DNA of 64,000 nt from Ostreococcus lucimarinus (lineage: Eukaryota), in the NCBI GenBank assembly GCA_000092065.1, contig CP000581.1, one strand, 5' to 3'. How positions within the stretch are numbered: position 1 is the stretch's first letter; every line of letters starts with the position of its first letter. Shown here piece after piece: positions 8,846 to 56,776 of the stretch. The notes under the pieces are model-generated. The model was not told the DNA's origin. It ran no database searches and saw only the letters and a list, made by a program, of their open reading frames with translations. A program made the position numbers and the translations under genes.

Positions 8846-9757
8846 CTAATCAAACGACGGCGCGAAGCTCGGCATGGACGCCAATTTCTCCGCGCGCTTT
8901 GGCGCCGCCTGCGTCTTCGATTGGGTCTTCTTCTTTTTCGCCTTCGGCAGGTTCACGGGAATGCCCGGCAACATTAAAGGTTCGCCGGCCTCGATCGGGG
9001 GTTTCAACGCGCGCTCAACCTTGGTCTTCGTCTTGGTCAACAGCGTCTGCACCGTGGAGCAAATCGTCACCGGCGCCGCCAACGTGGACTCCTCCAACCT
9101 CGTCGCCCCCGCTAAACTCCTCGTGTACTCGCTCGCGCTCGCGCTCATCTCATCTAACTCATCATCGAGCCTCTCTTGCAACAAATGCGCCAGGGCCTCG
9201 TGAATCGCCTCCTTCTCGTCGAAATTTTTAAACACCTCTGGCGCCCCCGCGCCCATTCGCGACATCGGCGCGTTCGTCGTGTCCCTCGCCCCCACCACGA
9301 AGCTCTCCGCGTCCATCATTTTCTTCACGATCCGTCCCACCGCGTGCGCTCCGATCGCATCGCACGCCTCGATCGTCTCCGCCAGCGCCTCCAGCGCCCT
9401 CGGGCACGCGTACGCTCGCACCGGCTCTCCCTCCAATTGCGTCTCGTGCAGCGCGTACACGCAGTACACCCCCGTCGCTCGCGTCGCCAGCGTCTTCCCC
9501 GTCCGCGCGTACTTCATCGCGCAATCGTACGCGCACTGCACGTACCCGTTGTACGTCTGCTGCGCCGGCTTTCCCAGGTGCACGTTCGAGAACCGTCGCT
9601 CGCACCAGCGCGCTTTGAAATTCGCAAACGACATCGCCGCCGCGTACGCGTCGTCGCCGTCGTCGCGCGCGCGGTCGACGTCGCGCGCGTGGCGCTCGAT
9701 GAGATCCATGACGTCGATCTCCACGCCGCGGAGCTCGCGCTCGTCGCACGCGGGCAT
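8846..9757 (-). CDS. Conserved hypothetical protein (303 aa), Cys-containing globular N-terminal domain + K-rich tail
   Basis: ORF 8846..10780 is antisense to JmjC gene above 9848; in-frame ATG at 9755-9757 gives MPACDERELRGVEIDVMDLIERHARDVD...SFANFKARWCERRFSNVHLGKPAQQTYNGYVQCAYDCAMKYARTGKTLATRATGVYCVYALHETQLEGEPVRAYACPRALE...KAKKKKTQSKTQAAPKRAEK; no family recognised. Confidence 0.4.
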   Translation of the reverse strand: MPACDERELRGVEIDVMDLIERHARDVDRARDDGDDAYAAAMSFANFKARWCERRFSNVHLGKPAQQTYNGYVQCAYDCAMKYARTGKTLATRATGVYCVYALHETQLEGEPVRAYACPRALEALAETIEACDAIGAHAVGRIVKKMMDAESFVVGARDTTNAPMSRMGAGAPEVFKNFDEKEAIHEALAHLLQERLDDELDEMSASASEYTRSLAGATRLEESTLAAPVTICSTVQTLLTKTKTKVERALKPPIEAGEPLMLPGIPVNLPKAKKKKTQSKTQAAPKRAEKLASMPSFAPSFD

Positions 9758-9847: not shown

Positions 9848-11050
9848 ATGGACGCGCGGGCGAAGGCGCTCGCGGCGCTCGAGCGCGCGGCGCGCGGCGC
9901 GGGCGCGTCGACGGCGGTGCGCGTCGCGGCGAACGCGGACGCGAGCGAGGCGGCGCTCGCGAGCGCGCGCGCGCTGGCGCACGACGCGCTGCACCGCGGA
10001 TCGTGGGCGGACGCGGACGAGTGCTGGCGGGGGGTGTACGCGGCGGCGACCGTGGCGTGGGCGCGACGCGCGGTGGCGAACGGGCGGGACGAGGGAGGCG
10101 AGCGCGCGCGCGACGCGCTGCGCGCGCTCGATTTGGCCGCCATGCTCGGAGGCGCGTGGTTTCGGGACGACGTGCGCGACGCGATAGCGGACGTGCGCGC
10201 GATGCGTGGGAAGAGGGAAAGACCGCGAGCGAGGCGCTGGAGCGCGTCGATCGATGAGGGAGAATCGACGGCGGGACGCGACGGCGACGAGACGGCGACG
10301 AGGCGCGCCGACGTGTCCATGGAGGCGTTTTATAGGGATTTCATGGCGAAGCGAGGCGAGGACGGCGAGTCGAGCGATTGCGGTACCCCGATCGTGCTCG
10401 ATGCGCTCGTCAAGCACTGGCCCGCGGTGACGAAGTGGAGAGACGGGGCGTACCTGGACGAAATCGTCGGCGATCGCACGGTGCCCGTCGAACTGGGGAA
10501 GACGTACGTCGACGACGCGTGGTCGCAGAAACTCATGACGATGCGTGAGTTCATGGACGCGTACGTCGACGGCGACGACGACGAGTCGACTCGACGCGCG
10601 AGCGGTGGTGCGGACGTGGGTTACCTCGCCCAGCACGAACTCTTCGAGCAGTGCCCAGAATTGAAGCGCGACATCGAGGAACCGCTGTATTGCGCGCTCG
10701 GCACCGGCACCGTGTGCGCGGTCAACGCCTGGTTCGGACCCGCGCACACGGAGTCTCCGGCGCACACTGACCCGCATCACAACCTACTGTGCCAAGTCAT
10801 CGGCGTCAAGCGCGTGCGTCTCTTCGCGCCGAGCGAGACGCCGAAGATGTACCCGCGCGACGCCCCGATGAGCAACACCTCCCGCGTCGACGTCATGCAC
10901 CCGAACTTGGACGAGTTCCCTCTCTTCGTCGACGTCGAGTTCATCGACGCGACGCTGTACCCCGGCGACGCCTTGTACATTCCACCCGGTTGGTGGCACC
11001 GCGTCAAAGCCGCCACCGTCTCGTTCAGCGTTTCGTATTGGTGGGACTGA
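9848..11050 (+). CDS. JmjC-domain protein, JMJD5/KDM8 (JMJ30)-like 2-oxoglutarate/Fe(II) oxygenase
   Basis: ATG 9848 (90 bp from divergent neighbour's ATG). C-terminal cupin: LYCALGTGTVCAVNAWFGPAHTESPAHTDPHHNLLCQVIGVKRVRLFAPSETPKMYP...LYPGDALYIPPGWWHRVKAATVSFSVSYWWD aligns with JMJD5 [30 protein letters not shown]; HxD...H iron triad present. Confidence 0.7.
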   Translation: MDARAKALAALERAARGAGASTAVRVAANADASEAALASARALAHDALHRGSWADADECWRGVYAAATVAWARRAVANGRDEGGERARDALRALDLAAMLGGAWFRDDVRDAIADVRAMRGKRERPRARRWSASIDEGESTAGRDGDETATRRADVSMEAFYRDFMAKRGEDGESSDCGTPIVLDALVKHWPAVTKWRDGAYLDEIVGDRTVPVELGKTYVDDAWSQKLMTMREFMDAYVDGDDDESTRRASGGADVGYLAQHELFEQCPELKRDIEEPLYCALGTGTVCAVNAWFGPAHTESPAHTDPHHNLLCQVIGVKRVRLFAPSETPKMYPRDAPMSNTSRVDVMHPNLDEFPLFVDVEFIDATLYPGDALYIPPGWWHRVKAATVSFSVSYWWD

Positions 11051-18763: not shown

Positions 18764-20053
18764 CTAGTTGTACTGCATGTACTTCGCGGTGGAGGAGAAC
18801 TTTTGATAGCCCTTGATGACTTTGTTGATGGCGTCCAAGAAATCCTTTTCGCCGACGGTTTTCCGGCGCTGGCGAATGGCGAACATGCCGGCTTCGGTGC
18901 ACACGGAGTGGATCTCCGCCCCGGTGGCGTTGGGACACAGGCGCGCTAAAAGTTCGTAGCGAATGTCGCGCTCGACAGCCATGGAGCGGGTGTGAATCTT
19001 GAAAATTTGCGTTCGGGACTCCAAGTCGGGCAAGCCGAATTCAACCTTGCGGTCGAGACGCCCGGGACGCAACAGCGCCGGATCCAGAGTGTCGGGTCTA
19101 TTCGTGGCCATCAATACCTTGATGTTGCCTCTGGCGTCGAACCCATCGAGCTGGTTCACAATCTCAAGCATCGTACGCTGCACTTCGTTGTCTCCGCCTT
19201 GACCGTCGTCGAAGCGAGCGCCGCCGATGGCGTCGACTTCGTCGAAAAAAATCAAACACGCCTTTTTGCTCCTCGCCATCTGGAACAGCTCTCGAACTAA
19301 CCTCGCACCTTCCCCGACGTACTTTTGCACCAACTCGCTCCCGATGACGCGAATAAAACACGCATCCGTGCGATTCGCCACCGCGCGCGCCAGGAGCGTC
19401 TTACCCGTCCCCGGCGGCCCGTAACACAATACCCCTTTCGGCGGATCGATCCCAAGCTTCGCGAACTTCTCGGGGTGCAACAACGGTAACTCCACGACTT
19501 CGCGAAGCTTCTCAATCTGTTCTTTCGACCCCCCGACGTCGCCGTACGTCACGTCGGGCTTTTCCTCAACCGTCATCATCGTCACGCTCGGATCGATCTT
19601 CGGTGGCAACGGCAACTGTATGAAATACTTATTCCGGTCCACCCCCACCCGCATCCCCTCCTCAATGTCCGTCGGCGCCACCTCGTTCCCCAAACCCACG
19701 ACGAACTTTGCGATTTGTTTCACGTTTATCACGTACTGCGCGTCCTCCGTCCCCGGGTTGATGATCTTCGTGCATCTCGCCACTTGCAACGGTTGCTGCT
19801 CCTGGAACGCCTGTTTATCCGCCGTCAAATCCCACTGCGACGGCGGCGCCAGCCCGGTGTCGCTCTCCTTGATCCCGCACAAGTCGTTCACGCGCTTACT
19901 GATCGTCTTCAGGTCGTTTTCGAGATCTTTAATCGCGTCGTTATACGCCCCCAACCCGTACGTCTTCAGCAGCGCGATGTCGTCCTCGTCCAGGGGGATG
20001 ATCTTTTTATCCGCGTCGCCGAACTCGACGTCCTCCGCGCTCGGGACGCCCAT
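18764..20053 (-). CDS. RPT1: 26S proteasome regulatory subunit 7 (Rpt1 / PSMC2), AAA ATPase
   Basis: From ATG 20053: [38 protein letters not shown]...[39 protein letters not shown]...[40 protein letters not shown]...ends [12 protein letters not shown]; near-colinear with human PSMC2. Upstream 49 codons of the ORF (MDDRVASS...) are poorly conserved. Confidence 0.9.
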
Positions 20054-20147: not shown

Positions 20148-21017
20148 ATGGACGAGAAAGCGGTAGATTTATTCGTCGAGCTCGCGACGCGATCGTCCAC
20201 GTTCGCCGGCGTCGTGCAGACGCGATACGCGGAGTGGAGAAACTTGTTTCGAGTGCTGAAAGATTTGAAAAACGACGAGACGTCGGCGCTCTCGAGCGTC
20301 GCGCGGGACGCGAGCAGCCCGACGGACTTCGAACAGTGGGGACGGGAGCGATCGCCGATGTTTGCGGACGAATTTGAGAAGTTTTTGAGCGATGCGCGGT
20401 GCGTGGAGGCGGTGTGCGAGGATTTGGGAGCGAGCGAGCGCGTGCGAGGACGCGCGACGGGAGAGACGTCGACGCCGGTGCGGGAAACGCCGGAAGCGGT
20501 AAAGGACGCGGAGAAATCGTTTCGAAAGATGAAGACGCCGTCGAGAGCGGTGGAGGTGGAGATGGAGGCGGAGAAGATGGAGAATTTCGTGGCGGAGAAG
20601 CCGCGCGGCGGCGGTTTGGGCGCGGCGGCGCGCGTGGAGACGAGAGAGCCGATGCGGGCGAACGTGACCCCGCCGCCGCGTGCGGCGCAAGTCGTGCAGA
20701 AGTCGCCGCCGCCAACGCCGATGCCTTCGCAGTTGTCTCCACCGCAGAGCGAATACGCGACGCCGGCGTCTGGGAGGAAACCAAAGAACGGCGCTGCTTC
20801 GGCGTCTGAAGCCGCGCACGTCGAACATTTGATGTCCTACTTGACTGGCTTTCACGGATTGCTTTTTGGTCTTAAAGATCACGTTGAGCGCATTCGAGGG
20901 GCGACGATTGAAAACGTTTCGCATGAACTCGCGCGAACGGATGCGAGATTGGACACCGCCATCGCCAGGCTCGAAGCGGCGATGGGAGTCGAGTCGGGCG
21001 AAAACAAAACACATTAA
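20148..21017 (+). CDS. Hypothetical protein (289 aa), acidic N-terminal half, Pro-rich middle, conserved-looking C-terminal helix
   Basis: ORF 19620.. is antisense to Rpt1 until 20053; first ATG after that is 20148 ([43 protein letters not shown]...[58 protein letters not shown]). No family recognised. Confidence 0.35.
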
Positions 21018-24803: not shown

Positions 24804-24824
24804 AATAGCTAACTACATCTAGTG

Positions 24825-25754
24825 CTACAACTCGTCATGCGCCGCCGCGCATTCGACGTCGTCGGTAATTTTATCGCACACGCGTCGAGCTTGCGCATCC
24901 GTCATCGGCCTCACGTCGTCGATCGCCGCGAGCGCGCTCGTCAACCAATCGTTCGCTTGCGCGTCTTCTCTCAACAGCGTGCATATGTTCGACAAGACAC
25001 GTATTGCGAATGCGTCTACATTGTCTTCGGGTTTCAATCTCGCCTCTCCCGGATTTGTAATTTCCGAATCGCGCGTATCGGCGCGAACGTCGACCAATCT
25101 ATGACTCGTTTTTTCGCGCCTTAGCGCCGTCACGTTCAAAAAGCGCGCGCACGTCGTCTCACGCCACACCAACCGCACGATATCCTCCCTTAAACTCTCG
25201 TCCAACGCCTTCCAGGATGACTGCGGCGTCGTCCTAGCCGACGTCATCGCATCCGCGTGCACGCCGCGAACCGTCAACTTACACCCATCGCACACCGCGC
25301 TCGCCGGCGCGCTCTCTAACGACGTCCAAACCTCAAACGTCGAATTCTCTCCTTCGCTCGCGTCGTCATCGCCTACTTCGACGTACGCCGACTCGCTCGC
25401 CGTCTGCGTCAACCGTCTCGAGCGTCGTCTCGCCGTCCCGCCCTCGCCCTCGCCCTCGCCCTCGCTCTCGCGATCCATCTCGAGCCGTCGCGCGCGCAGC
25501 GCCTCCGCGCGCGCGGCGTCCGCCGCCGCGTTCGCTCGCTCTCGCATCAGCGTCCGCGCGCGTTCGTCGTTCGTCGTCGCGCCGTGTCCCGCGCGCGCGC
25601 CCCAACCGTCGTGCTTCGGCGCGAGCCGCGCCGCGCGCCCGCGCCGCGCGCCCATCGCGCTCGACGGACGCACGCGCACGCCCGCGACGCCCGCGACGCG
25701 CATCGCGAGCGCGAGCGCGGCGAGCGCGAGAAGGCGCGCGCGACGTCGCGGCAT
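24825..25754 (-). CDS. ER-lumenal hypothetical protein: signal peptide + C-terminal HDEL retrieval motif
   Basis: ORF start 25760 is GTG; ATG at 25752-25754 (MPRRRARLLALAALALAMRVAGVAGV). Protein ends ...DDVECAAAHDEL*. Acidic (EGEGEGEG) stretch; no family recognised. Confidence 0.45.
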   Translation of the reverse strand: MPRRRARLLALAALALAMRVAGVAGVRVRPSSAMGARRGRAARLAPKHDGWGARAGHGATTNDERARTLMRERANAAADAARAEALRARRLEMDRESEGEGEGEGGTARRRSRRLTQTASESAYVEVGDDDASEGENSTFEVWTSLESAPASAVCDGCKLTVRGVHADAMTSARTTPQSSWKALDESLREDIVRLVWRETTCARFLNVTALRREKTSHRLVDVRADTRDSEITNPGEARLKPEDNVDAFAIRVLSNICTLLREDAQANDWLTSALAAIDDVRPMTDAQARRVCDKITDDVECAAAHDEL

Positions 25755-25780
25755 CGTCACTAATTCGCGCGCGTCGACGA

Positions 25781-27244
25781 ATGTCGTCGTCGCTCGCGGT
25801 CGCGCGCGCGCCGTGCGCGCGCGTCGACGCGCGTCGACGCGAACCGCGCGCGCGCGCGTCGAGGCCGCGCGCGGCGGCGCGCGCGGCGCGCGGCGAGGCG
25901 GAAGACTCGCGAACGTCGTCGACGCGTCGAGCGAATGCGGACGACGCGTCGACGACGACGCGCGCGACGCGCGCGCGCGCGGTGGCGCTCGCGGTCGCGG
26001 CCGCGATCGTCGGCGTCGGCGCGCACGCGCCGGCGCGCGCGCACGCGCGTAAGCACCATCCCGCGAGCGCGAGCGCGTCGTTCGAGCGATTCGTCGTCGG
26101 CGAGCGCGGCGGACGCGGCGGACGACGACCGGCGAAGCGGAATTCGTTCGTGCGGGATGCGGCGGACACCATCGGACCCGCGGTCGTGCGCATAGACAGC
26201 GATCAAGCGTCGCTGAGGAAGGCGATGACGGTGAGTGGATCGGTGAGCGAAGGACGGGTGGGCGGGAAGCCGACGAGCGGGCGAAGCGGCGTGATTCGCG
26301 GCACCGGCTGCGGATTGGTGATCGATGCCGAGGAAGGGTACGTGGTGACGAACAGTCACGTGGTGAAGCGGGAGGAAAAGGTTAAGGTGACGTTCATCGA
26401 TGGGAACGTGTACGACGGGGAAGTGAAAGGGGTGGATTCGTTGACGGATATCGCGCTGATTAAGCTCAAGCCGCGAGCGGGGCACGCGCTGCCGGTGGCG
26501 ACTTTAGGGAATAGCGACAGCGTCGAGGTTGGGGATTACGCCATCGCGCTCGGGAACCCTTTGGGTTTGGATAACAGCGTGACTTTGGGGATCATCAGTA
26601 ACGTGCACAGGACTTCGGCGGAGCTCGGGATTACGGACAGGCGGGTCGATTTCGTGCAGACGGATTGCGCCATCAATCCGGGGAATTCCGGCGGGCCACT
26701 GGTGAATGAATTCAGTGAGGTCGTCGCGTTGAACACTGCCATCCGCGCCGACGCGGAAGGCATCGGATTCGCGATCCCGATCAACACCGTGAAGCGCGTT
26801 GCGAGTCTACTCGCCAACGGCGAAAAGGTGCCGCATCCGTTCATTGGTATACGCATGGTAGATAACTTCACAGCGAACTCAGCGTTTGGTGACCGCGCGC
26901 TGGAACTTCCGGTGGGAACTGTGATAGTAGACGTGATCGAAAAGTCACCCGCTGCTCTCGCGGGACTGGCTGTCGGCGATGTCATCACCGCCGTCAACGG
27001 CGTCGTGATGAACGGCGCGCAAATTCTCGATCGCGTAAAAGTCACTCCCCCGGGTGACTCGTACGAGTTTACCGTCTTCCGACCATCCGCACAAGACTCG
27101 CACATGCACAGACGCGTCATCATCCGCGTTGGTGACTTAGCCGAGCACAACAATCGCTCCAAGAGCGTCAACGCTGAGGAACGCAACGTCAGCCCGCCCG
27201 GCGTCGGCGTGCGACCGCCGATTCCTCGAACCTTCGGCGCGTGA
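25781..27244 (+). CDS. Deg/HtrA serine protease (trypsin-like domain + PDZ), chloroplast Deg1-like with bipartite presequence
   Basis: ATG 25781, only 26 bp from divergent neighbour's ATG. GTGCGLVIDAEEGYVVTNSHVV (His), DIALIKL (Asp), DCAINPGNSGGPLVN (Ser GNSGGP); PDZ ...GTVIVDVIEKSPAALAGLAVGDVITAVNG. N-terminus R/A-rich plus hydrophobic AVALAVAAAIVGVGAHA. Confidence 0.85.
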   Translation: MSSSLAVARAPCARVDARRREPRARASRPRAAARAARGEAEDSRTSSTRRANADDASTTTRATRARAVALAVAAAIVGVGAHAPARAHARKHHPASASASFERFVVGERGGRGGRRPAKRNSFVRDAADTIGPAVVRIDSDQASLRKAMTVSGSVSEGRVGGKPTSGRSGVIRGTGCGLVIDAEEGYVVTNSHVVKREEKVKVTFIDGNVYDGEVKGVDSLTDIALIKLKPRAGHALPVATLGNSDSVEVGDYAIALGNPLGLDNSVTLGIISNVHRTSAELGITDRRVDFVQTDCAINPGNSGGPLVNEFSEVVALNTAIRADAEGIGFAIPINTVKRVASLLANGEKVPHPFIGIRMVDNFTANSAFGDRALELPVGTVIVDVIEKSPAALAGLAVGDVITAVNGVVMNGAQILDRVKVTPPGDSYEFTVFRPSAQDSHMHRRVIIRVGDLAEHNNRSKSVNAEERNVSPPGVGVRPPIPRTFGA

Positions 27245-27414: not shown

Positions 27415-28280
27415 ATGCCGTACGACAGCGCCATCACGGTCTTCTCCCCCGACGGGCACTTGTTCCAGGTGCGCCGTTCGCCCTCTCCTCGCGCGTAACG
27501 GCGCGAAACCGCGCGCGAATCGACGACTAATAACGACATGGATCTCGAACGTTTCAGGTTGAATACGCCATGGAAGCCGTGCGAAAGGGCACGCTGACCG
27601 TCGGCGTGCGCGGGAGCGATATCGTCGTCCTTGGCGTCGAACGCAAGGCGGTGCCGAAACTGCAAGACGCGCGAACGATTCGAAAGATTCAATTGCTGGA
27701 CGATCACATCGCGGTGGCGTTCGCGGGGCTCACGGCGGACGCGCGGATATTGATCAATCGGGCGCGGACGGAGTGCCAGAGTCACCGTTTAACGCTAGAA
27801 GATGAAGCGTCGGTGGAATACATCACGCGATACATAGGCGGGGTGCAGCAGAAGTACACGCAGAGCGGAGGGGTGCGCCCGTTTGGGCTGAGCACGCTCA
27901 TCGCCGGGTTCTCGCCCGAGGGGAAGCCGCAGTTGTTTCACACCGATCCAAGCGGCACGTACAGTCAGTGGAAGGCAAACGCGACTGGACGTAACTCAAA
28001 GTCGGTTCGAGAGTGGTTAGAGAAACATTATGAAGATTTTAGTGGGGAAGAAGCGATCAAGTTTACGCTCAAGGCGCTCCTGGAAGTCGTCGAGCCCGGG
28101 TCGAAGAACATAGAAATCGGCGTGATTCGCTCGCCGACCAGTGGGTTAGAGATGCTCTCCGCGGAGACAATCGATGCGCTCGTGAAGAACATCGAAGACG
28201 AAAAAGCAGAGCTCGACAAGGCGAAGAAGGAGAAGGCCAGGGCTGCTGCGGAAGCCGCCGCCGCCGCCGCGACTCTATAA
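27415..28280 (+). CDS. PSMA7: 20S proteasome alpha subunit type-7 (alpha4 / PSMA7 / PAD1); exon1 27415..27468, 89-nt intron GTGCGC...CAG, exon2 27558..28280
   Basis: Exon1 (ORF 27316..27498 fragment) [18 protein letters not shown] then gtgcgc; exon2 after tttcag: [44 protein letters not shown]...[29 protein letters not shown]...[19 protein letters not shown], near-identical order to human PSMA7. Confidence 0.9.
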
Positions 28281-28334
28281 ATTTTCGCAAGTTGTTATCC
28301 CACGCACCAGTAGTCGACTAAGCCCGACCCCGCG

Positions 28335-29591: not shown

Positions 29592-29744
29592 GATTGAATT
29601 AGCGTCCAATGTTAATATTAAAAACAAACTTGTGGTGAAAGAACTATGCATCGCAAGCCACGGCATATGCTATGGTCGAGACTTATTTAATGAGCGGCGC
29701 ACACGGTATTACCATAGTACGTTGTGCAGGACTACAGTGTAGGA

Positions 29745-31916: not shown

Positions 31917-32255
31917 CGACTATTTTCGCGCGCACCAGCGTCCGTCAGTCATCGCGCACGCCTCCGATGGGTTCGCCAACAATTACCCTCCCTCATCGAC
32001 CGGCGAGCAGTCGCATCGCGTTCGCGTCGTCATCGCGCGTTCGCGTCGTCGTCGACCGCGCGTCGCGTCGAGTCTCGCGTCGTCGCTCTCGCACCTGCTG
32101 CATGTTTCGTCGACGAACGCTCGGACGACGGGCGTCGAAATGCCGACACGCGCGCGCGATCGGACGCGATCGGACCTTTCGGGGTCGACACGACACGAGG
32201 GACTGTATGTTGAGTCACGATTCGTGGATATTTGCGTATAAAAATTCGAAATTGG

Positions 32256-35200
32256 CTAAGAAGGAAAAGAATTTTGCGTTTTGGACGCGGCCTGATTCGG
32301 ACGCGAGGGCGACGACGGGTGCGCGACGGCGGCGGCGCACTCGTGCACGGCGAGGGGAAGGCCGGGGAAGGTGAGCGTGACGTACGCGGCAAAAATCGCG
32401 CGACGTTGATCGCGAGTGTAGGAACGCGCGGAGGCGTCGAGATCGACGCCGAAAGGCAGGGCGTCGGCGTCGGCGAGCTTGCGAAGAAGCGGGGCGAGCT
32501 CCTTGTTGGTCTCGGGCGGGTGCTCGTGGACGTTTCGGCAGAATCTTAAGAGATCAGCGAAGCCAGCGCGGTAGGGCTTGGTGCTTTGCTCCGAAGATTG
32601 ACCTCGCGGCGGTTTTTGCTTGTGGTTGTTGGCGTCCGACGAGTGCGGGACGCCGTCGCCGTTTCGCTGCGCAAAGTTTACCACGCGCGACAAGAGGGCT
32701 GGTTCGATTTGACGTTGCCAATCTTGGAGGTCCATGGATACCGCGGCGAGAAGTGCGCCTCGTTCGCTGTCACCGCCCAAGAGCGCTTTTGTGTTGACAC
32801 TCTGAAGCACGCTCGTCAGGCTGGTTTGTAGCTTGGCGGATCCCGCGTGCAGGTCGCTCAAGTTTTCAAGGACGGTGTCGTCGTCCCACAGCAGTGGATG
32901 ATTCAGTACTCCTTCTGCCGTCGGCCGCATCGCCGGGTTGGGCGATAACATCGCCGAAAGCAAATGGCGCGCCTCAATCGCGCGTCTGGGCGGCATGTCG
33001 TTTGCATTCATGAGTCGTTGTAAGTTGTAACGACCGTTGAGAATCTCGTCGTCGCTCGGCTTCACATTCGGGTCTTCACCAAATGGAGAGTTGAACCCGG
33101 TGAGGACGTAAAAGAACACGACACCCATCGCCCAAATATCCGCCGCGGGTGTCAAGGGCTTTCGAGCCAAGATTTCGGGCGCACGCCCGGCCAAGACGAT
33201 GGAGATGCCGTACTTGCTGAACGTACCCAACGAGTATTGATCAGAGTCGCCCTCTTCTTTGCGAAGTCGCACGCCGAGACCGACGTCGGCGATTTTTACC
33301 TTGCCATTTGAAGTCACAAGCAAGTTTTCTGGCTTCAAATCGTTATGTGTGATGCACCCTTGCGTCTTGCCGTCGTCGTGAAGCCATGCGATGCCTTCGG
33401 CGACGCCTTTCAGCAACTTGATTCGTTTCGCCGCCAAGAGATTCGGCTGGCGCGCGATGTGCTCGCGAAGCGACTCTGGACAGAGCTCTTGTGCGATGAA
33501 GACGTTAGAACTCGTGATACCCCAGCAGTGGAAGAACGGAACCAATGGTGACTGATTGAGTGCCGTCATCAACTCGACTTCGCGTTCGACGAGTTGCACG
33601 AGATCACGACCCTTCTCGCCAGGCGGGCGCGCGATTCTTTTGACTGCAACGGCGTGCCTTGCACGCGAAGTGTGTCTAACGTATCCTCGAAAAACGTAAG
33701 TACCCGCGCTGCCGACACCGATGACTTCTTCCTCGTTATAAATGATGCTTTCGCCGACGCGACGCCAGCCACTCGTGCCGTCCGACGTATCATCCGTCAT
33801 TTCCCCGACACCATCTTCGTCCGGCACCGCGTTCGCCCACGCGAGTTTAACGTCTTCGAAGTCTTCACTGTCACTGCTTGCCATAAGTTCGGTTTCAGCA
33901 GATTCGAACAACGGACCACGCACGCCGTTGTCTCGGCCTGCGAACCGTACAGGCTTTTTTGAGCTCATTCCAGACATCTTTGGAGTCGAAGACTTTGATG
34001 GCTTCACCAACCCACTTGCCGCATTCGCCATGCGTTGAATCTGTTCATGTTCGGCTTGCGTAATATCCAAGCTTTCTCTCAGCGTGAGTAGCATTTGTGC
34101 GCTTTCAGGAGTGACCGTGCCGGTGGCCCACGCGACTTTGCTCGCCGCGAAATACGCGCGCAAACGCTGGTCACCACCTTCGAGCGCAGATTCGGCTTCT
34201 AACTCGCTCAGCACAGCTTTTGCTCGACGCATATCAACGTCCGTCGACTCTGGGTCGCGTTGTGACTCTTCGAGCGCTAACCGAAGTTCAGTTCGACTTC
34301 TACTCAAAATAGCCGTCTCCAAACGTTCAAGACGTCGCCACCTCACGAGGACTCGTTCAGCTTTTTCAATCAATTCATCCAATTGCCACGGCCAAGCAGA
34401 AGAACGCGCCCTAGATAGGGCTGATTCTAGCACTTTGACATCTTCGGACGTGATCCCACCGACGGCTTGATCGATTCCATTTGCCGACGGCCTCATCGCT
34501 TCGAGAAGCGCCGCGCGAGCACCCTCCATGTCTTGTAGCGCGGTTGCTCGACTCTGCACTCGACTCACGAGAGTGTTCAGCTTTGCGGCGCCTTCTTGCG
34601 TCAGTGGCGGACCGTTCGATGCAAGCTTAGCCGCCTGTAGCAATAAATTCTCCAACCTAGGCACAGATTCCACGCTCCTACTCGTCTCATCCGCTAGAGC
34701 AGCGCGTAAATCCGATTCAAGCGCGTCGGCGCGCAAAGCGCGTTCGGCTCCAATGACCGCCGCTGTCAAAGCGCTTCGCGCGCTTTTCTTCTTCTTGCTA
34801 CCGCCTTCATCAGCGATGGAGTCTATGACAGCGGCAAACGGATCGGGGTCGTAGGACATAGACGCCGCCGCTTCGTCAACGTCGTCGAACTCATCCAGGC
34901 TCGATTGCACGTCCTCTGCGACGTCTGTCGCGTTACCTAAGAACTGTTCAGCCCGTGCGTAAGTCGCTTGCAAAGCCTGAACATCCATAGGAACCTGCAA
35001 ACACGCTGCTCGTAAGGCATTCGCGAGCGCCAACTCTTCGGCCGCGCTCGCCTTACTACGAATGTCTCTCATTAACTTTTCGCCTTCATCCTGCATGGCG
35101 CCGAGCGCGCGTGCTTCTTTGAGCGCTTCCTCGAGAACGATAAGAGCACGACCTTGGGGGTCGGTTTGCGCCGCTTCAAACGCCCGGAGTACACTTTTTC

Positions 35201-36338
35201 TAGCCTGCACGCGTTTCACCGATCGACCGAGGAGAATCTTCGTGCGACCCTCCATGAGGGTCTTGAGCCGTTCCTTCTCCACATTACGCGCCTTGCCCGT
35301 CTTCACGGACACCGCAAGTGAGTTGTCCAACCACAACGTGAGCTGCACAAATGGGACTTCTTTTTCGAGCAACAGTTCAACAGTGTTGACCATGGCTTCG
35401 CCGTCGGATTCAGCCGCATCTTCGTCCCCAGGGGCGGAAATATTCAACAACATGACGAGCTTCTTGTGCCCTTTTCGCCGTTTTGCATATAGCTCGCTCG
35501 TTTCGTTTTCCCAAATCCCCTCTCGCGAGTACGTGACGAGCTCGTACGGATTATCGGGCCAGAGCCGAGCGAACACCGTTCGTAAATCTCCCATCGTCGC
35601 ACACTGTGGTAACAAGACGTAAATCTTACTCTTTAGCGCTGCTTGTTCGTCTGCCGAGCCGCTCCCCACACGCATTCCACCCGCCGCCGCCAACGCACTT
35701 GTCACCATTAGCACCGTCCGAAGCGTCAAAGCCGTCGTCGGTTGCGTCCAATGGTCCCAAGTCGGCAACATCACCGGCATCTCAGCCGTCGCGTTCCCAG
35801 GATTCTCCACGCTCCGTCCCGCCGCCAACGCCTTGGTCGAGGTTGGAAACGTCGTCGCCGCCCGCAACGACGGCACCGGCACGTGCATCGCCACGCTCGG
35901 CGTTTCGCCGACCACGAGCTTATTCGCCGGAAAGCTCGTCACCTCATTCACGATGACATCCGTCACCTCTTTTACGACCAGCGTCGTCGACGTCTCGCCG
36001 CCGAGGTGCCAACGCACGACGGCTTCGAGCGCGTCCATCTTCGACCCAGGCGCGACGCTCGGTGGCGCCGGCGCTTGGTACACCGTCACCAGCGACGACG
36101 CGCGCCGAACGAAGCCCTCGATCGGGGCCATCCAATCGTTCATCGCCTCACCGGCGCGCGCGCCGTCGTCGTCGTCGTCCGTCTTGGCTGTCCGCCGCAC
36201 CGACGTCGACGTCGACCGACGCGTCGCGCCCGCGCGTCGCCGCGCGCGCGCCGTCGCGCCCGCACCGCGCGCCGTCGGCGTCGTCGACGTCGACGACGAC
36301 GCCGCGCCGTGCGACGCCGCGCGCGCGCAGGGCGTCAT
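32256..36338 (-). CDS. IRE1/RNase L-family protein: long coiled-coil-rich N-terminal region + Ser/Thr kinase-like domain + C-terminal KEN endoribonuclease domain
   Basis: ORF 32256..36905 overlaps the + strand UMP-CMP kinase gene above ~36680, so start placed at in-frame ATG 36336-36338 (alternative 36143). Kinase: GVGSAGTYVFRG, AVAVKRI, ITHNDLKPENLLV (HRD->HND), KIADVGLG (DFG->DVG). KEN: HPLLWDDDTVLENLSDL ~ IRE1 HPFFW..; DLQDWQRQIEPALLSRV; YRAGFADLLRFCRNVHEHPPETNKEL ~ human IRE1 [27 protein letters not shown]; FGVDL...TFPGLPLAVHE ~ FVCYFTSRFPHLLAHT. No signal peptide, no TM, no lumenal beta-propeller. Confidence 0.7.
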   Translation of the reverse strand: MTPCARAASHGAASSSTSTTPTARGAGATARARRRAGATRRSTSTSVRRTAKTDDDDDGARAGEAMNDWMAPIEGFVRRASSLVTVYQAPAPPSVAPGSKMDALEAVVRWHLGGETSTTLVVKEVTDVIVNEVTSFPANKLVVGETPSVAMHVPVPSLRAATTFPTSTKALAAGRSVENPGNATAEMPVMLPTWDHWTQPTTALTLRTVLMVTSALAAAGGMRVGSGSADEQAALKSKIYVLLPQCATMGDLRTVFARLWPDNPYELVTYSREGIWENETSELYAKRRKGHKKLVMLLNISAPGDEDAAESDGEAMVNTVELLLEKEVPFVQLTLWLDNSLAVSVKTGKARNVEKERLKTLMEGRTKILLGRSVKRVQARKSVLRAFEAAQTDPQGRALIVLEEALKEARALGAMQDEGEKLMRDIRSKASAAEELALANALRAACLQVPMDVQALQATYARAEQFLGNATDVAEDVQSSLDEFDDVDEAAASMSYDPDPFAAVIDSIADEGGSKKKKSARSALTAAVIGAERALRADALESDLRAALADETSRSVESVPRLENLLLQAAKLASNGPPLTQEGAAKLNTLVSRVQSRATALQDMEGARAALLEAMRPSANGIDQAVGGITSEDVKVLESALSRARSSAWPWQLDELIEKAERVLVRWRRLERLETAILSRSRTELRLALEESQRDPESTDVDMRRAKAVLSELEAESALEGGDQRLRAYFAASKVAWATGTVTPESAQMLLTLRESLDITQAEHEQIQRMANAASGLVKPSKSSTPKMSGMSSKKPVRFAGRDNGVRGPLFESAETELMASSDSEDFEDVKLAWANAVPDEDGVGEMTDDTSDGTSGWRRVGESIIYNEEEVIGVGSAGTYVFRGYVRHTSRARHAVAVKRIARPPGEKGRDLVQLVEREVELMTALNQSPLVPFFHCWGITSSNVFIAQELCPESLREHIARQPNLLAAKRIKLLKGVAEGIAWLHDDGKTQGCITHNDLKPENLLVTSNGKVKIADVGLGVRLRKEEGDSDQYSLGTFSKYGISIVLAGRAPEILARKPLTPAADIWAMGVVFFYVLTGFNSPFGEDPNVKPSDDEILNGRYNLQRLMNANDMPPRRAIEARHLLSAMLSPNPAMRPTAEGVLNHPLLWDDDTVLENLSDLHAGSAKLQTSLTSVLQSVNTKALLGGDSERGALLAAVSMDLQDWQRQIEPALLSRVVNFAQRNGDGVPHSSDANNHKQKPPRGQSSEQSTKPYRAGFADLLRFCRNVHEHPPETNKELAPLLRKLADADALPFGVDLDASARSYTRDQRRAIFAAYVTLTFPGLPLAVHECAAAVAHPSSPSRPNQAASKTQNSFPS

Positions 36339-36678
36339 CGTCGCGGTCGCGCGTCGGTGTGTACCGAACACAGCGACGCGCGAACGCGAAAGATGTTCCG
36401 ACGATGCGCAACGACCGCGGCTCGAGAGCTCGCGCGGGCGCGCCAACGCGCGAAAGCGATCGCGGTGCGCGCGTTGAAGCGTCGAACGCGCGCGAACGCG
36501 ACGCACGCGAACGCGTGAAGGGGAATGATTGAAAGACACGGGGACGCGCGGACGTTCGATCGACGACGACTGACGACGCTGACGGCGCGCGATGCGCGAT
36601 GCGTGGACGCAGGAGAGCGCGACGAGCGCGATGGTATCGATCGATGCGCCGATGGGGTCATCGGGGCGGGCGTGGGTG

Positions 36679-37398
36679 ATGATGCCGCGAACAGCGAGGC
36701 TGGCGGCGACGACGACGTTCGCGAGCGCGGCGGCGTTCGCGGCGTCGGCGACGTCTGCGGCGTGCATGGGCGCGAGTGAGACTAAAGTCGCGAGCGGTGA
36801 GGACGGTGATGCGAATGTGAAGGAAGCGAAGCCGACGGGGACGCCGACGGTGGTTTTCGTGCTCGGCGGTCCGGGCGCGGGGAAGGGAACGCAGTGCGCG
36901 AACATCGTTCGCGACTACGCCTTCGTGCACTTGTCCGCAGGAGACTTGCTCCGCGCGCACATGAAAAGCGGGAGCAAAGATGGAAATATGGTGGCAGAGA
37001 TGATAAAACAAGGTCAGATCGTGCCGAGCGAGGTGACGGTCAATTTGCTCTTGGAAGCGATGCGCGCTAGCGGAAAGGATCGATTTTTAATCGATGGGTT
37101 CCCGCGAAACAAGGAAAATCGCGATGCGTGGGAAACGACCGCGGGCTTCGATTGCGATTTTGTTCTATTTTTCGACTGCCCAGAGGAAGTCATGACAGAG
37201 CGTTTACTCGGCCGTAACGAGGGTCGAACGGACGACAACATTGATACCATCAAGAAGCGTTTCAAGACGTTTCGCGAGAGTTCCATGCCGGTGATCAACT
37301 ACTACGACAGCTTGAACAAGGTTTGCAGCGTCAACAGCGACCAATCGCCCGAAGATGTGTACGCGCAAACTAAAGAGTATTTCTCGAAGTTCGCTTGA
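36679..37398 (+). CDS. UMP-CMP kinase (adenylate kinase family) with organellar-type presequence
   Basis: ORF 36592.. overlaps kinase-KEN gene; ATG-ATG at 36679 ([29 protein letters not shown] presequence; alt ATG 36766). [37 protein letters not shown] (P-loop), [27 protein letters not shown]...[17 protein letters not shown]. Confidence 0.8.
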
Positions 37399-45691: not shown

Positions 45692-46714
45692 CTAATGCTC
45701 GCACCCGGGAACGCGACACGACCACTTACACCCTTCGAGCATGAACCCCGGGTTCTTGTCGCATTCGCCCGTGTTGGCCCAGCCGCGACACTGGTCGTGC
45801 GCGTCTTCGCATCCGGGCGTCGCGCTCGCCTCGGGCGGTTTCTGCCAGCGGTACGGCTCGGCGTGCACCCACACGGTGGCGGTCCACTTCACCCCCGCAA
45901 CGACGGGACAACCGACATGCAACGCGCGGTGATCAATCTTCCCGTTCGGGTCCACGGACCAAAATATTAAGCCGTCGCCTCGGCGCGGTTTCATCGCCAC
46001 GCGATGCTCCGCGCACTTCGACCAACTCGTCCCCTCCGCCATCTTCGGATCGATCCACTCGCTATCGGGAAACGCCGTCTCTCCCCCCGCCTCGGGTTCT
46101 TCCAAGTACAACAACACCGTCGCCACGCGTTTACCGCCGTCTTTCGACAACTCTCTCCCGCTCAGCGAATCCTCCGCGCCCACGTCTTCGTGCGCGTCGT
46201 ACTTTTCCCCCACCCGGTATTCCAACACTTGCATGTCCTCGTTGTGCGTCCAGGGCAGCATCGTCACCGCGCTCAGCGCGTCGTATATCTCTCGCACCAC
46301 CTCCTCGTCGCGATTTAAAAACGTCTGCTTCGACGTGCGAATCGGATCGACTTTCGACTCGCCCGTGACGCTGTCGACGACGGTGCTTCGCCGGACCCGC
46401 GCGCGCGTCGCCCGCAGCACCGCCTCGCACTGCGCCTCCGTCAGCGCGTCTCGCAGCGCGAACGCGCGCGGGTACCACGACAGCGGTTCGACGCGCGTCC
46501 GCGCTCGCGCCCGCGCGTCCGACAGCGTCGGTCGCGCGCCGTCCGTCGTCGTCCGTCGTCGCGCGCGCGCGCCGTCGAACCCGTGCGTCGTCACGCGCGC
46601 GCCCAGCGCGCCCAGCGCGAGCGCGCACGCGAGCGCGAGCGCGCGCGCCGTCCACCGCGCGCGCGCGCGCGACCGACGTCGACGCGAGACGTCGACGGAC
46701 GCCGCGCGAAGCAT
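45692..46714 (-). CDS. Prolyl 4-hydroxylase alpha-like 2OG-Fe(II) oxygenase with signal anchor and C-terminal ShK (ShKT) domain
   Basis: ORF to 47203 but only in-frame ATG before the signal anchor is 46712-46714 ([39 protein letters not shown]). P4Hc core: YDAHEDVG...GGKRVATVLLYLEEPEAGGETAFP...HRALHVGCPVVAGVKWTATVW (HxD...H + basic residue); tail CEDAHDQCRGWANTGECDKNPGFMLEGCKWSCRVPGC = six-Cys ShK fold. Confidence 0.8.
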   Translation of the reverse strand: MLRAASVDVSRRRRSRARARWTARALALACALALGALGARVTTHGFDGARARRRTTTDGARPTLSDARARARTRVEPLSWYPRAFALRDALTEAQCEAVLRATRARVRRSTVVDSVTGESKVDPIRTSKQTFLNRDEEVVREIYDALSAVTMLPWTHNEDMQVLEYRVGEKYDAHEDVGAEDSLSGRELSKDGGKRVATVLLYLEEPEAGGETAFPDSEWIDPKMAEGTSWSKCAEHRVAMKPRRGDGLIFWSVDPNGKIDHRALHVGCPVVAGVKWTATVWVHAEPYRWQKPPEASATPGCEDAHDQCRGWANTGECDKNPGFMLEGCKWSCRVPGCEH

Positions 46715-47831
46715 GGATTGGATTGGATGCGACGCGACGCGACGTGACGCCGCGAGAGCGCGACGCGCGATGTCGCGCGCGCGCGAGGCGCCGACGACGT
46801 TCTGTGGACTGCCGACGCTGCGACCGGACGCGCAGGCGAGGACGCGCGCGGCGACGCCCGAGACGCGCGGCGACGCGCGCGACGACGCGACCCGGACGCG
46901 CGTGCGAAAACTGCTGCTCGTGCGCCACGGCGCCAAGGCGAAGACGACGCGAGGGAAACGAGACGCGGAGGAGATTCGACGCGCGTGCGAGGCCGCGAAC
47001 GTCGACGTCGAGACGGCGACGACGGAACGCGCGGGACACGGCGTCGAACTGGTGCGAGACGCGGATCTGAGCGACGTGGACGCGATCGGGGTCGTGGGAG
47101 GGGACGGGACGCTTCGCGAGGCGGTGCAGGGATGGATCGAGCGCGAGGCGAGCGGGCGGGGCGACGGGAGGCGAACGCCGATTTTCGCGTTTCCGTGCGG
47201 CACGGGGAATAATTACGCGCGAGATCTCGGGGTGTTCACCGTCGCGGACGCGATGGCGAAGTTGAAAGCCGGGAACGCGCGTCCGGTGGACGCGGTTCGA
47301 GTGTCGGACGGCGTCGGTAACGATACGATTTCGATCAACGTCGTGACGTGGGGCATGGCGCGCGACGCGGCGGAAACGGCGGAGGGCATGCGTTGGATGG
47401 GCGGTTTGCGTTACGACGTCGCCGGTTTGATTCACATCTTGAAGAATAAAAAGAATAACGGCATCATCGGCGTCAGCGATTCTCTCGAGGGCGAGATCGT
47501 GGAGGAATCGAATGATTATTTGATGATGTTCGCGCAGAACACGCGTTGCAGCGGCAGAGCTTTCGCGTTCACGCCGCTGGCGCAACTCGACGACGGATTT
47601 TTCGACGTCGTCGTGTGTAACAAAGGAGGCCCGATGCACACGAAGGCGCTCTTCGACGCCACGAAAACTGGTGGCGGTCACGTCGAAGATCGTAACGTAT
47701 CATACGTTAAAGCTAAGCGGTTGTCGCTGAAAACAGCGGCGGCCGAGAGCGTCGGCATTGACGGCGAAGTCACCGTTCCAACGCCCGTTCATCTGACGGC
47801 GCTCGAGGGAGTTTTCACTACGTTTCGCTAA
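46713..47831 (+). CDS. Lipid kinase with DAGK catalytic domain (sphingosine kinase / acylglycerol kinase-like)
   Basis: ORF 46233..; ATG 46713 (MDWIGC...; alternative ATG 46773 MSRAREAP...). KLLLVRHGAKAK..., DAIGVVGGDGTLREAVQGWIER (GGDG motif), IFAFPCGTGNNYARDLG (GTGN), accessory domain ...IDGEVTVPTPVHLTALEG. Confidence 0.65.
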   Translation: MDWIGCDATRRDAARARRAMSRAREAPTTFCGLPTLRPDAQARTRAATPETRGDARDDATRTRVRKLLLVRHGAKAKTTRGKRDAEEIRRACEAANVDVETATTERAGHGVELVRDADLSDVDAIGVVGGDGTLREAVQGWIEREASGRGDGRRTPIFAFPCGTGNNYARDLGVFTVADAMAKLKAGNARPVDAVRVSDGVGNDTISINVVTWGMARDAAETAEGMRWMGGLRYDVAGLIHILKNKKNNGIIGVSDSLEGEIVEESNDYLMMFAQNTRCSGRAFAFTPLAQLDDGFFDVVVCNKGGPMHTKALFDATKTGGGHVEDRNVSYVKAKRLSLKTAAAESVGIDGEVTVPTPVHLTALEGVFTTFR

Positions 47832-47867
47832 GTAGTACGTCTTGTATTAATCGCACGCTATGTATGT

Positions 47868-56716: not shown

Positions 56717-56776
56717 CTGCGAGATTTAGCAAATAGCACATCTGATGGTTAAAAGAATGACTAAGGTCTAGAGTAT

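What the first reader, a model, noticed from the sequence alone, without database searches (positions are those of the whole stretch)
46700..46780. Divergent genes whose start codons overlap in a single CATG; extreme head-to-head packing elsewhere
The only ATG that precedes the prolyl-4-hydroxylase signal anchor is the reverse complement of 46712–46714. The first ATG of the lipid-kinase ORF is 46713–46715. The two initiation codons therefore share the palindrome CATG, so the 5' ends of the transcripts must overlap unless the kinase starts at the next ATG (46773). The same pattern recurs elsewhere. The HDEL-protein and Deg-protease ATGs are 26 bp apart (25754/25781). The hypothetical/JmjC ATGs are 90 bp apart (9757/9848), Rpt1/hypothetical ~94 bp (20053/20148), and SOD-like/CBP3 93 bp (3199/3293). 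This implies overlapping divergent transcription units or unusually short or absent 5' UTRs.
Basis: partly seen in the sequence, partly recalled or inferred. Interest (0 to 1): 0.5.

Follow-up and report, generated by a model that had tools for sequence, protein, structure and literature searches.

The report
Tightly packed head-to-head Ostreococcus genes
Two neighbouring genes of the tiny marine alga Ostreococcus lucimarinus point away from each other with only 55 bases between their start codons; the apparent sharing of one CATG by both start codons is a coincidence, and the tight packing is an ordinary, already described property of this very compact genome.

Summary
The window is Ostreococcus lucimarinus CCE9901 chromosome 1. 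The CATG at 46712-46715 is real. CAT 46712-46714 is the only usable start of the prolyl-4-hydroxylase (P4H). ATG 46713 is in frame with the DAGK-like lipid kinase.

The evidence:
- That ATG is conserved in the four related lineages whose junction was compared in detail. In two of them a TGA closes the frame just upstream and the P4H start reads CATC.
- Its context, GACGCGCG-ATG, is the local start consensus: 99.9th percentile of all ATGs, against the 51st for 46713.
- The 55-nt spacer consists of two pentanucleotide microsatellites and is polymorphic between strains whose flanking proteins are identical.
- The reference model XP_001415628.1 also starts at 46770, though that is an annotation choice, not independent evidence.

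A second in-frame CATG, at the Rpt1 start (20051-20054), is likewise coincidental. About 1.3 such cases are expected by chance and 2 are seen.

The other spacings (26, 90, 94 and 93 nt) are correct. The pairs I checked are conserved at 55-71 nt (P4H/kinase) and 16-70 nt (HDEL/Deg). So 5' UTRs must be very short, or divergent transcripts overlap. Sequence alone cannot say which. Known phenomenon, low interest.

The parts
45692..46714 (-). Prolyl-4-hydroxylase-like CDS (340 aa; N-terminal signal anchor, 2OG-FeII_Oxy_3 domain, C-terminal ShK domain). The start codon is the reverse complement of 46712-46714.
   Evidence: Pfam hits. It is the only in-frame ATG upstream of the anchor. The N-terminus is conserved and contiguous in L009, L010 and L011. 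An identical 340-aa product is called on 15 metagenome contigs.
46712..46715 (.). CATG palindrome. CAT is the P4H start. The + strand ATG (46713) is in frame with the kinase but most likely not its start.
   Evidence: CATG is kept only in the closest relative, L009; L010 and L011 read CATC. The context score of 46713 is at the 51st percentile of all ATGs.
46715..46769 (.). 55-nt divergent spacer holding the shared promoter and 5' leader region. It is built from two pentanucleotide microsatellites: (TGGAT)3 at 46714-46728 and (GCGAC)~7.6 at 46729-46767.
   Evidence: TRF. Two alleles of equal length occur in metagenome contigs that encode an identical P4H or an identical kinase. Against L006 there are 4 differences in 55 nt, compared with 6 in 4822 nt of CDS. 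Spacer length is 55/55/63/57/71 nt in the window, L009, L010, L011 and L025.
46727..46747 (+). Out-of-frame upstream ATG with a 6-codon uORF (ATG CGA CGC GAC GCG ACG TGA). It is present only in the window's spacer allele.
   Evidence: Allele B (L001-L004, L006, L007) reads GGACG here and has no ATG.
46770..47831 (+). DAGK_cat/YegS_C lipid kinase CDS, 353 aa, identical to reference protein XP_001415628.1 / A4RRU0. This is the most likely true start.
   Evidence: Exact match to the O. lucimarinus CCE9901 reference protein. The ATG is conserved in L009, L010 and L011 and in L025 as called. Length differences after it (L009, L010) are multiples of three. The context score of 7.6 bits is at the 99.9th percentile. 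Pfam hits.
24825..25754 (-). CDS of an ER-type protein with a signal peptide and C-terminal HDEL (309 aa).
   Evidence: Translation. The MPRRR... start is conserved in L017.
25755..25780 (.). 26-nt spacer between the HDEL-protein start and the Deg-protease start.
   Evidence: The homologous spacer is 16 nt in L017 (counted) and, by eye, about 50 nt in L021/L023 and about 70 nt in L019.
25781..27244 (+). Deg/HtrA-type serine protease CDS (487 aa). The first and only in-frame ATG upstream of the hydrophobic N-terminal segment.
   Evidence: Pfam Trypsin_2 and PDZ hits. ATG positions.
8846..9757 (-). Its start also sits in a CATG (9755-9758), out of frame with JmjC.
   Evidence: Pfam PF09808; exact reference match.
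9848..11050 (+). JmjC/KDM8-like CDS (400 aa), 90 nt from the SNAPC1-like start.
   Evidence: Pfam ARM_KDM8_N aligns residues 18-122 to profile positions 18-117, which fixes the N-terminus.
18764..20053 (-). Rpt1 (26S proteasome regulatory subunit 7) CDS, 429 aa, identical to XP_001415951.1. Its start sits in a CATG at 20051-20054.
20148..21017 (+). Conserved hypothetical protein CDS (289 aa). The CATG-derived ATG at 20052 is in frame, but orthologues place the start here.
   Evidence: Orthologues begin 6-25 residues before the conserved LFVELA block. Both the 289-aa and the 321-aa versions are called by different pipelines.
1859..3199 (-). Cu/Zn-SOD-like CDS with a signal peptide (446 aa).
   Evidence: Pfam Sod_Cu; first ATG of the ORF.
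3293..4087 (+). CBP3 (ubiquinol-cytochrome c chaperone) CDS (264 aa), 93 nt from the SOD-like start.
   Evidence: Pfam PF03981. The next ATG would truncate the domain.

Best explanation
This is an ordinary, evolutionarily stable head-to-head gene pair in the very compact nuclear genome of Ostreococcus lucimarinus. P4H starts at 46714 on the minus strand. The lipid kinase starts at 46770 on the plus strand. The 55 nt between them, two pentanucleotide microsatellites, are non-coding and must carry the 5' leaders of both mRNAs and at least part of both core promoters.

The CATG arises because the P4H start codon happens to have C at -1, as do about 30% of starts here. The resulting opposite-strand ATG happens to fall in the kinase frame, which stays open by chance in GC-rich DNA.

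Shown: gene identities, positions of the start codons, conservation of the pair and of its spacing, and the non-coding character of the spacer.

Inferred:
- The kinase TSS lies inside the spacer, giving a leader of 56 nt or less, probably under 43 nt. Otherwise the strong-context AUG at 46713 or the uAUG at 46727 would be met first by scanning ribosomes.
- The promoter-associated region spills into the first part of each coding sequence.
For: Organism and reference model:
- The 353-aa product starting at 46770 is identical to XP_001415628.1 of O. lucimarinus CCE9901. The 372-aa product starting at 46713 is in no collection.

Conservation:
- The synteny RCC1-like / P4H(-) / kinase(+) / PRORP(-) holds in relatives with 96, 91, 68 and 56% kinase identity.
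- The 46770-type ATG is conserved in L009, L010 and L011. L025 also has ATG-to-ATG neighbours as called there.
- In L010 and L011 a TGA lies 24 and 33 nt upstream of that ATG in frame, and the P4H start is CATC.
- Length differences downstream of that ATG are multiples of three: +42 nt in L009 and +72 nt in L010.

Start context:
- A matrix built from 38 other starts gives 7.6 bits for 46770 (99.9th percentile of 1397 ATGs) and -1.3 bits for 46713 (51st percentile).

Spacer:
- It consists of (TGGAT)3 followed by (GCGAC)7.6.
- Two alleles differ at 4 clustered positions between strains whose contigs encode an identical P4H or an identical kinase. Against L006 there are 4 differences in 55 nt versus 6 in 4822 nt of CDS.
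- If the stretch were translated, the window-versus-L009 differences and the allele differences would all change amino acids.

Orthologues:
- The conserved block FCGLPTLRPD starts about 10 residues after Met-46770, as in several orthologues.

General packing:
-.

Literature:
- Overlapping UTRs in O. tauri (PMC4378021).
- 2288 bidirectional pairs in O. tauri (PMC4035068).
- In O. tauri the 6mA peak and the 5mCG minimum sit at the ATG itself (bioRxiv 10.64898/2026.07.10.737489). This fits promoters that abut or overlap the start codons.
Against: - No transcript 5' ends, ribosome footprints or N-terminal peptides were available, so usage of either ATG is inferred.
- AUG 46713 has a classical strong Kozak context (A at -3, G at +4), is in frame and is retained in the closest relative, L009. 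Any kinase transcript that begins inside P4H would start translation there.
- The 4 clustered spacer differences may be a single repeat-conversion event, so the polymorphism argument rests on few events.
- The start-context matrix partly reflects the composition of CG-rich leaders.
- The gene callers and the reference model agree on 46770, but that is not independent evidence.
Confidence: 0.85

Rival explanations
1. True shared-CATG initiation. The kinase is translated from AUG 46713 (372 aa), so its mRNA begins inside the P4H coding region and the two transcription units overlap at their 5' ends.
For: ATG 46713 is in frame and open, with A at -3 and G at +4. It is retained in L009. The frame has no stop back to 45933.
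Against: The upstream ATG is absent, and the frame is closed by TGA, in L010 and L011. The 19 extra codons are a polymorphic microsatellite with only non-synonymous differences. The context score is at the median of random ATGs. This product is in no database. About 1.3 such coincidences are expected in the window. The parallel case at 20052 is contradicted by orthologues.
Confidence: 0.08
2. The start codons are as in the best explanation, but the divergent transcripts overlap substantially. Each gene's TSS and core promoter lie inside the partner's first 100-300 nt of coding sequence, and those coding 5' ends have been purged of antisense ATGs to keep the partner's long leader free of upstream AUGs.
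For: In the first 300 nt of CDS of genes with a divergent partner closer than 300 nt, there are 13 antisense ATGs against 41 sense ATGs. The rest of the same genes have 163 against 228 (Fisher p = 0.017), and the first 300 nt of other genes have 44 against 64 (p = 0.04). P4H, Deg, Rpt1 and CBP3 have no upstream ATG for more than 400 nt, although their spacers are only 26-94 nt. In O. tauri, RNA-seq assembly merged genes because of overlapping UTRs (PMC4378021).
Against: The sample is small (18 genes), and low-complexity Ala/Arg-rich N-termini are a confounder. Sense-like strand asymmetry (GAC:GTC = 107:40) extends only about 50 nt upstream of start codons and is gone by -50 to -100 (64:61), which suggests short leaders. 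For the kinase, a leader longer than 43-57 nt would meet the uAUGs at 46727 and 46713.
Confidence: 0.3
3. The apparent start codons are wrong because one or both genes have an upstream exon or a non-AUG start, so the real 5' ends lie elsewhere.
For: The O. lucimarinus reference set does not contain the 340-aa P4H product, so its deposited model differs. Some Ostreococcus genes have introns (my own knowledge).
Against: The P4H N-terminus, with its basic stretch and signal anchor, is contiguous with the ORF and conserved in L009, L010 and L011. Pfam domains and orthologue N-termini fit the chosen starts for JmjC, SNAPC1-like, Rpt1, CBP3 and the kinase. No upstream in-frame ATG exists for P4H or Deg.
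Confidence: 0.03

Closest known systems
Compact intergenic regions and bidirectional gene pairs of Mamiellales genomes (Ostreococcus tauri and O. lucimarinus, Micromonas)
   Same: Same organism group and the same architecture. Intergenic distances are in the tens to low hundreds of nt, a large share of genes lie head-to-head, and UTRs are reported to overlap (PMC4378021, PMC4035068, PMC4815162, bioRxiv 10.64898/2026.07.10.737489). The window shows divergent gaps of 26-471 nt and convergent gaps of 36-302 nt.
   Different: Nothing essential. This locus is at the short end of the distribution. The 26-nt HDEL/Deg spacer (16 nt in a relative) is the most extreme case seen here.
Overlapping transcription and ultra-short 5' UTRs in other compacted eukaryotic genomes (microsporidia, nucleomorphs, Giardia). 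Recalled from my own knowledge, not tested here.
   Same: Start codons of neighbouring genes are too close for conventional promoters plus leaders. Transcripts are expected either to start a few nt from the AUG or to begin inside neighbouring genes.
   Different: Ostreococcus is a free-living alga with a GC-rich genome. No TSS data were available here to show which of the two solutions it uses.
Mammalian and yeast bidirectional promoters
   Same: Divergent orientation, a short shared upstream region and conservation of the pairing across species.
   Different: In those systems the two TSSs are typically 100-200 bp or more apart inside a nucleosome-free region, and leaders do not have to fit in 16-71 nt. 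CCAAT/NF-Y-type elements are not conserved here: ATTGG occurs only in the O. lucimarinus alleles.
Truly overlapping genes that share start-codon nucleotides, as in viruses and some bacteria
   Same: Only the formal CATG palindrome.
   Different: Comparative evidence shows that the second ATG of the palindrome is not the conserved start.

Membership tests
Head-to-head (bidirectional) gene pair with a shared short upstream region | Two protein-coding genes on opposite strands, transcribed away from each other | tested here: met
   P4H on the minus strand and the kinase on the plus strand, both with Pfam domains. The same holds for the four other pairs.
Head-to-head (bidirectional) gene pair with a shared short upstream region | Distance between the 5' ends under 1 kb | tested here: met
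   ATG-to-ATG spacers are 55, 26, 90, 94 and 93 nt. TSS positions themselves are unknown.
Head-to-head (bidirectional) gene pair with a shared short upstream region | The arrangement is conserved in related genomes | tested here: met
   The P4H/kinase pair is kept in four related lineages (L009, L010, L011-L013, L025) with spacers of 55-71 nt, but not in Micromonas. The HDEL/Deg pair is kept with spacers of 16-70 nt.
Head-to-head (bidirectional) gene pair with a shared short upstream region | One promoter region drives both genes (co-regulation, bidirectional activity) | not testable with these tools
   Needs expression data or reporter assays.
Overlapping genes sharing start-codon nucleotides | Both ATGs of the CATG are used as initiation codons | tested here: not met
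   By comparative inference only. The upstream ATG is absent and the frame is closed in L010 and L011. Its context score is at the median. The intervening 19 codons are a polymorphic microsatellite. No translation data were available.
Overlapping divergent transcription units (5'-5' antisense overlap) | The TSS of each gene lies upstream of the partner's TSS, so the mRNAs are complementary at their 5' ends | tested here: inconclusive
   Antisense-ATG depletion in the partners' 5' CDS favours it (p about 0.02). Leader-like strand asymmetry limited to about 50 nt and the uAUGs at 46713 and 46727 argue against it for the kinase. No TSS data.
Ultra-short-leader mRNAs (Giardia or microsporidia type) | TSS within a few to a few tens of nt of the AUG | not testable with these tools
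   Only upper bounds follow from the sequence. If the two leaders do not overlap, their combined length is at most 55 nt here, and at most 26 nt (16 nt in L017) for HDEL/Deg.

The most novel reading that the evidence does not exclude
In Ostreococcus, closely spaced divergent genes are transcribed from promoters embedded in each other's coding regions. Their mRNAs then overlap at the 5' ends, and selection has removed antisense ATGs from the first few hundred nt of the partner's CDS to keep those long leaders free of upstream AUGs. Where removal failed, as at the CATG, the leftover ATG is tolerated because it is in frame and only adds a harmless N-terminal extension.
Probability: 0.2. Interest if true: 0.45.

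Novelty: already known. Interest (0 to 1): 0.15.

Why it matters
It matters mainly for annotation. In GC-rich compact genomes, long open frames and CATG start contexts create in-frame upstream ATGs that tempt readers and some gene callers into N-terminal extensions. Examples here are the 372-aa kinase against the 353-aa model, and the 321-aa against the 289-aa hypothetical protein. Comparison with sister species and the local start-context consensus resolve these cases.

Biologically, the conserved 16-71 nt start-to-start spacers restate an open but already recognised question: how RNA polymerase II initiation is organised when there is no room for two conventional promoters. That needs TSS mapping, not more sequence analysis.

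Tried and rejected
- Exact look-up of the 372-aa kinase found nothing on record. This is consistent with 46770 but is not independent evidence, because gene callers avoid overlaps.
- The first protein alignment misplaced the second Met against P0001/P0002 and briefly suggested that it was not conserved. The DNA alignment showed that the ATG is conserved and is followed by in-frame insertions.
- A crude SNP count against L001-L004, L007, L009 and L010 was unusable. The repetitive Nup54 FG-repeat gene and the RCC1/ephrin-repeat gene produced overlapping BLAST pieces. Only the clean L006 comparison was used.
- A CCAAT-box (ATTGG) reading of the TGGAT repeat was rejected because it is not conserved in L009, L010 or L011.
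- Rfam and tRNA scans of the whole window found nothing, so no RNA gene explains the spacers.
- Upstream-ATG counts against the overall ATG density were not a fair test, because ATG density differs between the sense and antisense strands of CDS. They were replaced by the sense-versus-antisense comparison, which is only suggestive.
- Literature searches found no TSS, CAGE or long-read transcript map for Ostreococcus. Derelle 2006 is not held.
Full report
**Identity of the sequence.** Exact look-ups show the window is nuclear DNA of Ostreococcus lucimarinus CCE9901, from a 1,152,508-bp chromosome record. Three products are identical to reference proteins:
- the 353-aa kinase, XP_001415628.1 / A4RRU0;
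- the 303-aa SNAPC1-like protein, XP_001415948.1;
- the 429-aa Rpt1, XP_001415951.1.

The window is 55-73% GC. By a self-trained gene map it is about 86% coding, with 39 genes.

**Observation.** The sequence reads ...GCGCGAAGCATGGATTGGATTGGATGCGACGCGACGCGACGTGACGCCGCGAGAGCGCGACGCGCGATGTCG....
- CAT 46712-46714 is the first and only in-frame ATG of the minus-strand ORF upstream of a basic stretch and signal anchor. The product has 2OG-Fe(II) oxygenase and ShK domains.
- ATG 46713-46715 is in frame with the DAGK_cat/YegS_C kinase.
- The next in-frame ATG is 46770-46772, not 46773.
- The kinase frame is open back to 45933 and holds an even earlier ATG at 46233. This shows how little an open frame means in this GC-rich DNA.
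The 'hypothetical' neighbour of JmjC is a SNAPC1 homologue. The HDEL protein does end in HDEL and has a signal peptide.

**Which ATG starts the kinase?** Relatives with conserved synteny (RCC1-like, P4H on minus, kinase on plus, PRORP on minus) were recovered from metagenomes. Their kinase identities are 96% (L009), 91% (L010), 68% (L011-L013) and 56% (L025).
- The ATG homologous to 46770 is present in L009, L010 and L011 with its context. GACGCGCGATGTCGCGCGCGCG is shared by the window, L009 and L010. L025 likewise has the kinase ATG as called.
- Downstream of that ATG, L009 and L010 differ from the window by insertions of 42 and 72 nt, both multiples of three.
- Upstream, L010 and L011 have a TGA in frame 24 and 33 nt before that ATG, and their P4H start reads CATC. 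The CATG exists only in O. lucimarinus and its closest relative.
- A position weight matrix built from the 38 other starts in the window has the consensus GACGCGCGCG-ATG. It scores 46770 at 7.6 bits, the 99.9th percentile of all 1397 ATGs on both strands. It scores 46713 at -1.3 bits, the 51st percentile.
- The block FCGLPTLRPD, conserved across Mamiellales, begins about 10 residues after Met-46770, as in several orthologues.

**Nature of the 55-nt spacer.** Tandem Repeats Finder resolves it into (TGGAT)3 at 46714-46728 and (GCGAC)7.6 at 46729-46767. Both upstream ATGs, 46713 and 46727, are by-products of the TGGAT repeat.

Each of the eight metagenome contigs L001-L008 was retrieved because it encodes a P4H or a kinase identical to the window's. 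Between them they carry two spacer alleles of the same length:
- ...GGATTGGATTGGATGCGACG... in the window, L005 and L008;
- ...GGATTGGACGCGACGCGACG... in L001-L004, L006 and L007.

Against L006 the spacer has 4 differences in 55 nt, while 4822 nt of CDS have 6. The four differences are clustered and may be one repeat-conversion event. If the stretch were translated, every difference among the two alleles and L009 would change an amino acid. The out-of-frame uATG at 46727, with a 6-codon uORF, exists in one allele only.

**Is a shared CATG surprising?** No.
- 12 of 39 starts have C at -1.
- The opposite ATG is in the partner's frame one time in three.
- 18-31 stop-free codons occur with probability 0.5-0.7.
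- So about 1.3 cases are expected among the 20 genes in divergent pairs.

Two are seen: this one, and Rpt1 with the hypothetical protein (CATG 20051-20054; ATG 20052 lies 32 codons upstream of 20148, in frame). For the second case, orthologues at 47-68% identity begin 6-25 residues before the conserved LFVELA block. That places the start at 20148. Longer database versions are gene-caller extensions. A third CATG, at the SNAPC1-like start (9755-9758), is out of frame with JmjC.

**Packing.**
- Divergent ATG-ATG gaps in the window are 26, 55, 90, 93, 94, 113, 162, 253, 253 and 471 nt.
- Convergent stop-stop gaps are 36-302 nt, median 64. The kinase/PRORP gap is 36 nt.
- The P4H/kinase spacer is 55, 55, 63, 57 and 71 nt across five lineages. 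The pair is not syntenic in Micromonas.
- The HDEL/Deg pair is also conserved. Its spacer is 26 nt in O. lucimarinus and 16 nt in L017, with about 50 and 70 nt in two further lineages (read by eye). The signal-peptide and transit-like N-termini are kept.

The tight packing is therefore real and stable, and it applies to the whole region rather than to this one locus.

**Mechanism.** With 16-71 nt between start codons, two conventional core promoters and leaders cannot sit side by side. Either the leaders are very short or the divergent transcripts overlap.

Evidence for short leaders:
- Coding-strand asymmetry (GAC:GTC = 107:40) extends only about 50 nt upstream of ATGs. It is lost between -50 and -100 (64:61).
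- A kinase leader longer than 43-57 nt would include the AUGs at 46727 and 46713.

Evidence for overlap:
- Antisense ATGs are depleted 3- to 4-fold in the first 150-300 nt of CDS of genes with a close divergent partner. Sense ATGs there are depleted less (13:41 against 163:228, Fisher p = 0.017).
- Several such genes have no upstream ATG for more than 400 nt.

Both signals come from a small sample and are confounded by low-complexity N-termini. I treat the question as open.

**Published work on the sister species O. tauri.**
- RNA-seq assemblies concatenate neighbouring genes because of overlapping UTRs (PMC4378021).
- 2288 bidirectional transcript pairs have been counted (PMC4035068).
- The 6mA peak and the 5mCG minimum sit at the ATG itself and relax over the first 100-200 bp of CDS (bioRxiv 10.64898/2026.07.10.737489).
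- Micromonas has mean intergenic distances of 167-211 nt (PMC4815162).

I found no TSS map for Ostreococcus.

**Verdict.** The string observation is correct but coincidental. The shared-start-codon reading is not supported. The head-to-head compaction is confirmed, conserved and already known for this lineage. The practical value is for annotation. The only mildly novel lead is the possible purge of antisense ATGs from the 5' ends of CDS of divergent partners, which needs a genome-wide test and TSS data.

Noticed in passing
window 20051-20054 and 20052-20147: A second CATG sits at the Rpt1 start. Its + strand ATG (20052) is in frame, 32 codons upstream of the divergent hypothetical gene (20148). 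Some metagenome pipelines call the 321-aa extended form. Orthologues support 20148.
   Followed up: yes
window 46714-46767; L001-L008: The P4H/kinase spacer is two pentanucleotide microsatellites, (TGGAT)3 and (GCGAC)~7.6. Two equal-length alleles occur in natural populations. One allele creates a uATG with a 6-codon uORF at 46727-46747.
   Followed up: yes
all 39 gene starts in the window: There is a strong local start-codon context, GACGCGCGCG-ATG: G at -3 in 21 of 38 starts, C at -2 in 24 of 38, G at -1 in 23 of 38. It separates true starts from random ATGs and could help re-annotation.
   Followed up: partly
first 150-300 nt of CDS of the 18 genes with a divergent partner closer than 300 nt: Antisense ATGs (CAT) are depleted 3- to 4-fold relative to the rest of the same genes, which is more than sense ATGs are (13:41 against 163:228, p = 0.017). 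This may reflect the partner's 5' leader running into the CDS, or the composition of the N-termini.
   Followed up: partly
window -50..0 relative to start codons: Coding-strand asymmetry (GAC:GTC = 107:40, A more frequent than T) extends about 50 nt upstream of ATGs and vanishes further up. It may mark the typical leader length.
   Followed up: partly
window 47832-47867 and other convergent pairs (1815-1858, 4088-4131, 24770-24824, 56717-56776): Stop-to-stop distances of convergent genes are only 36-60 nt, so 3' UTRs must overlap or be extremely short. Compaction is not specific to head-to-head pairs.
   Followed up: partly
L017 2164-2179: In a relative with 89% Deg identity, the HDEL-protein and Deg start codons are only 16 nt apart, tighter than the 26 nt in the window.
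   Followed up: yes
window 9848-11050, 20148-21017, 45692-46714: The deposited O. lucimarinus protein models appear truncated or different. JmjC is 235 aa (XP_001415618.1) against a 400-aa ORF that fits Pfam from residue 18. The hypothetical protein is 162 aa (XP_001415622.1) against 289 aa. The 340-aa P4H is absent from the NCBI/UniRef entries that were read.
   Followed up: partly
window 8846-9757 (-): The 'hypothetical' partner of JmjC matches Pfam SNAPC1 (snRNA-activating complex subunit 1; E = 4e-20).
   Followed up: partly
window 25781-27244, cluster 3: Many JGI metagenome entries name this Deg/HtrA protease 'ATP-dependent RNA helicase DDX56/DBP9', which looks like a propagated mis-annotation. 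Pfam shows Trypsin_2 and PDZ only.
   Followed up: no
window 32256-36914 (-) and 36592-37398 (+): The long minus-strand ORF has in-frame ATGs at 36905, 36767 and 36338. The first two would make it overlap the divergent + gene that starts at 36592. The codon-bias signal begins near 36350, so 36338 was used, but this start is unresolved.
   Followed up: no
window 12001-14000 and 28001-36000: GC is lower here (0.57-0.59) than in the rest of the window (0.61-0.73), and the codon-bias scores of the ORFs at 12426-14180 and 28335-29591 are weak.
   Followed up: no
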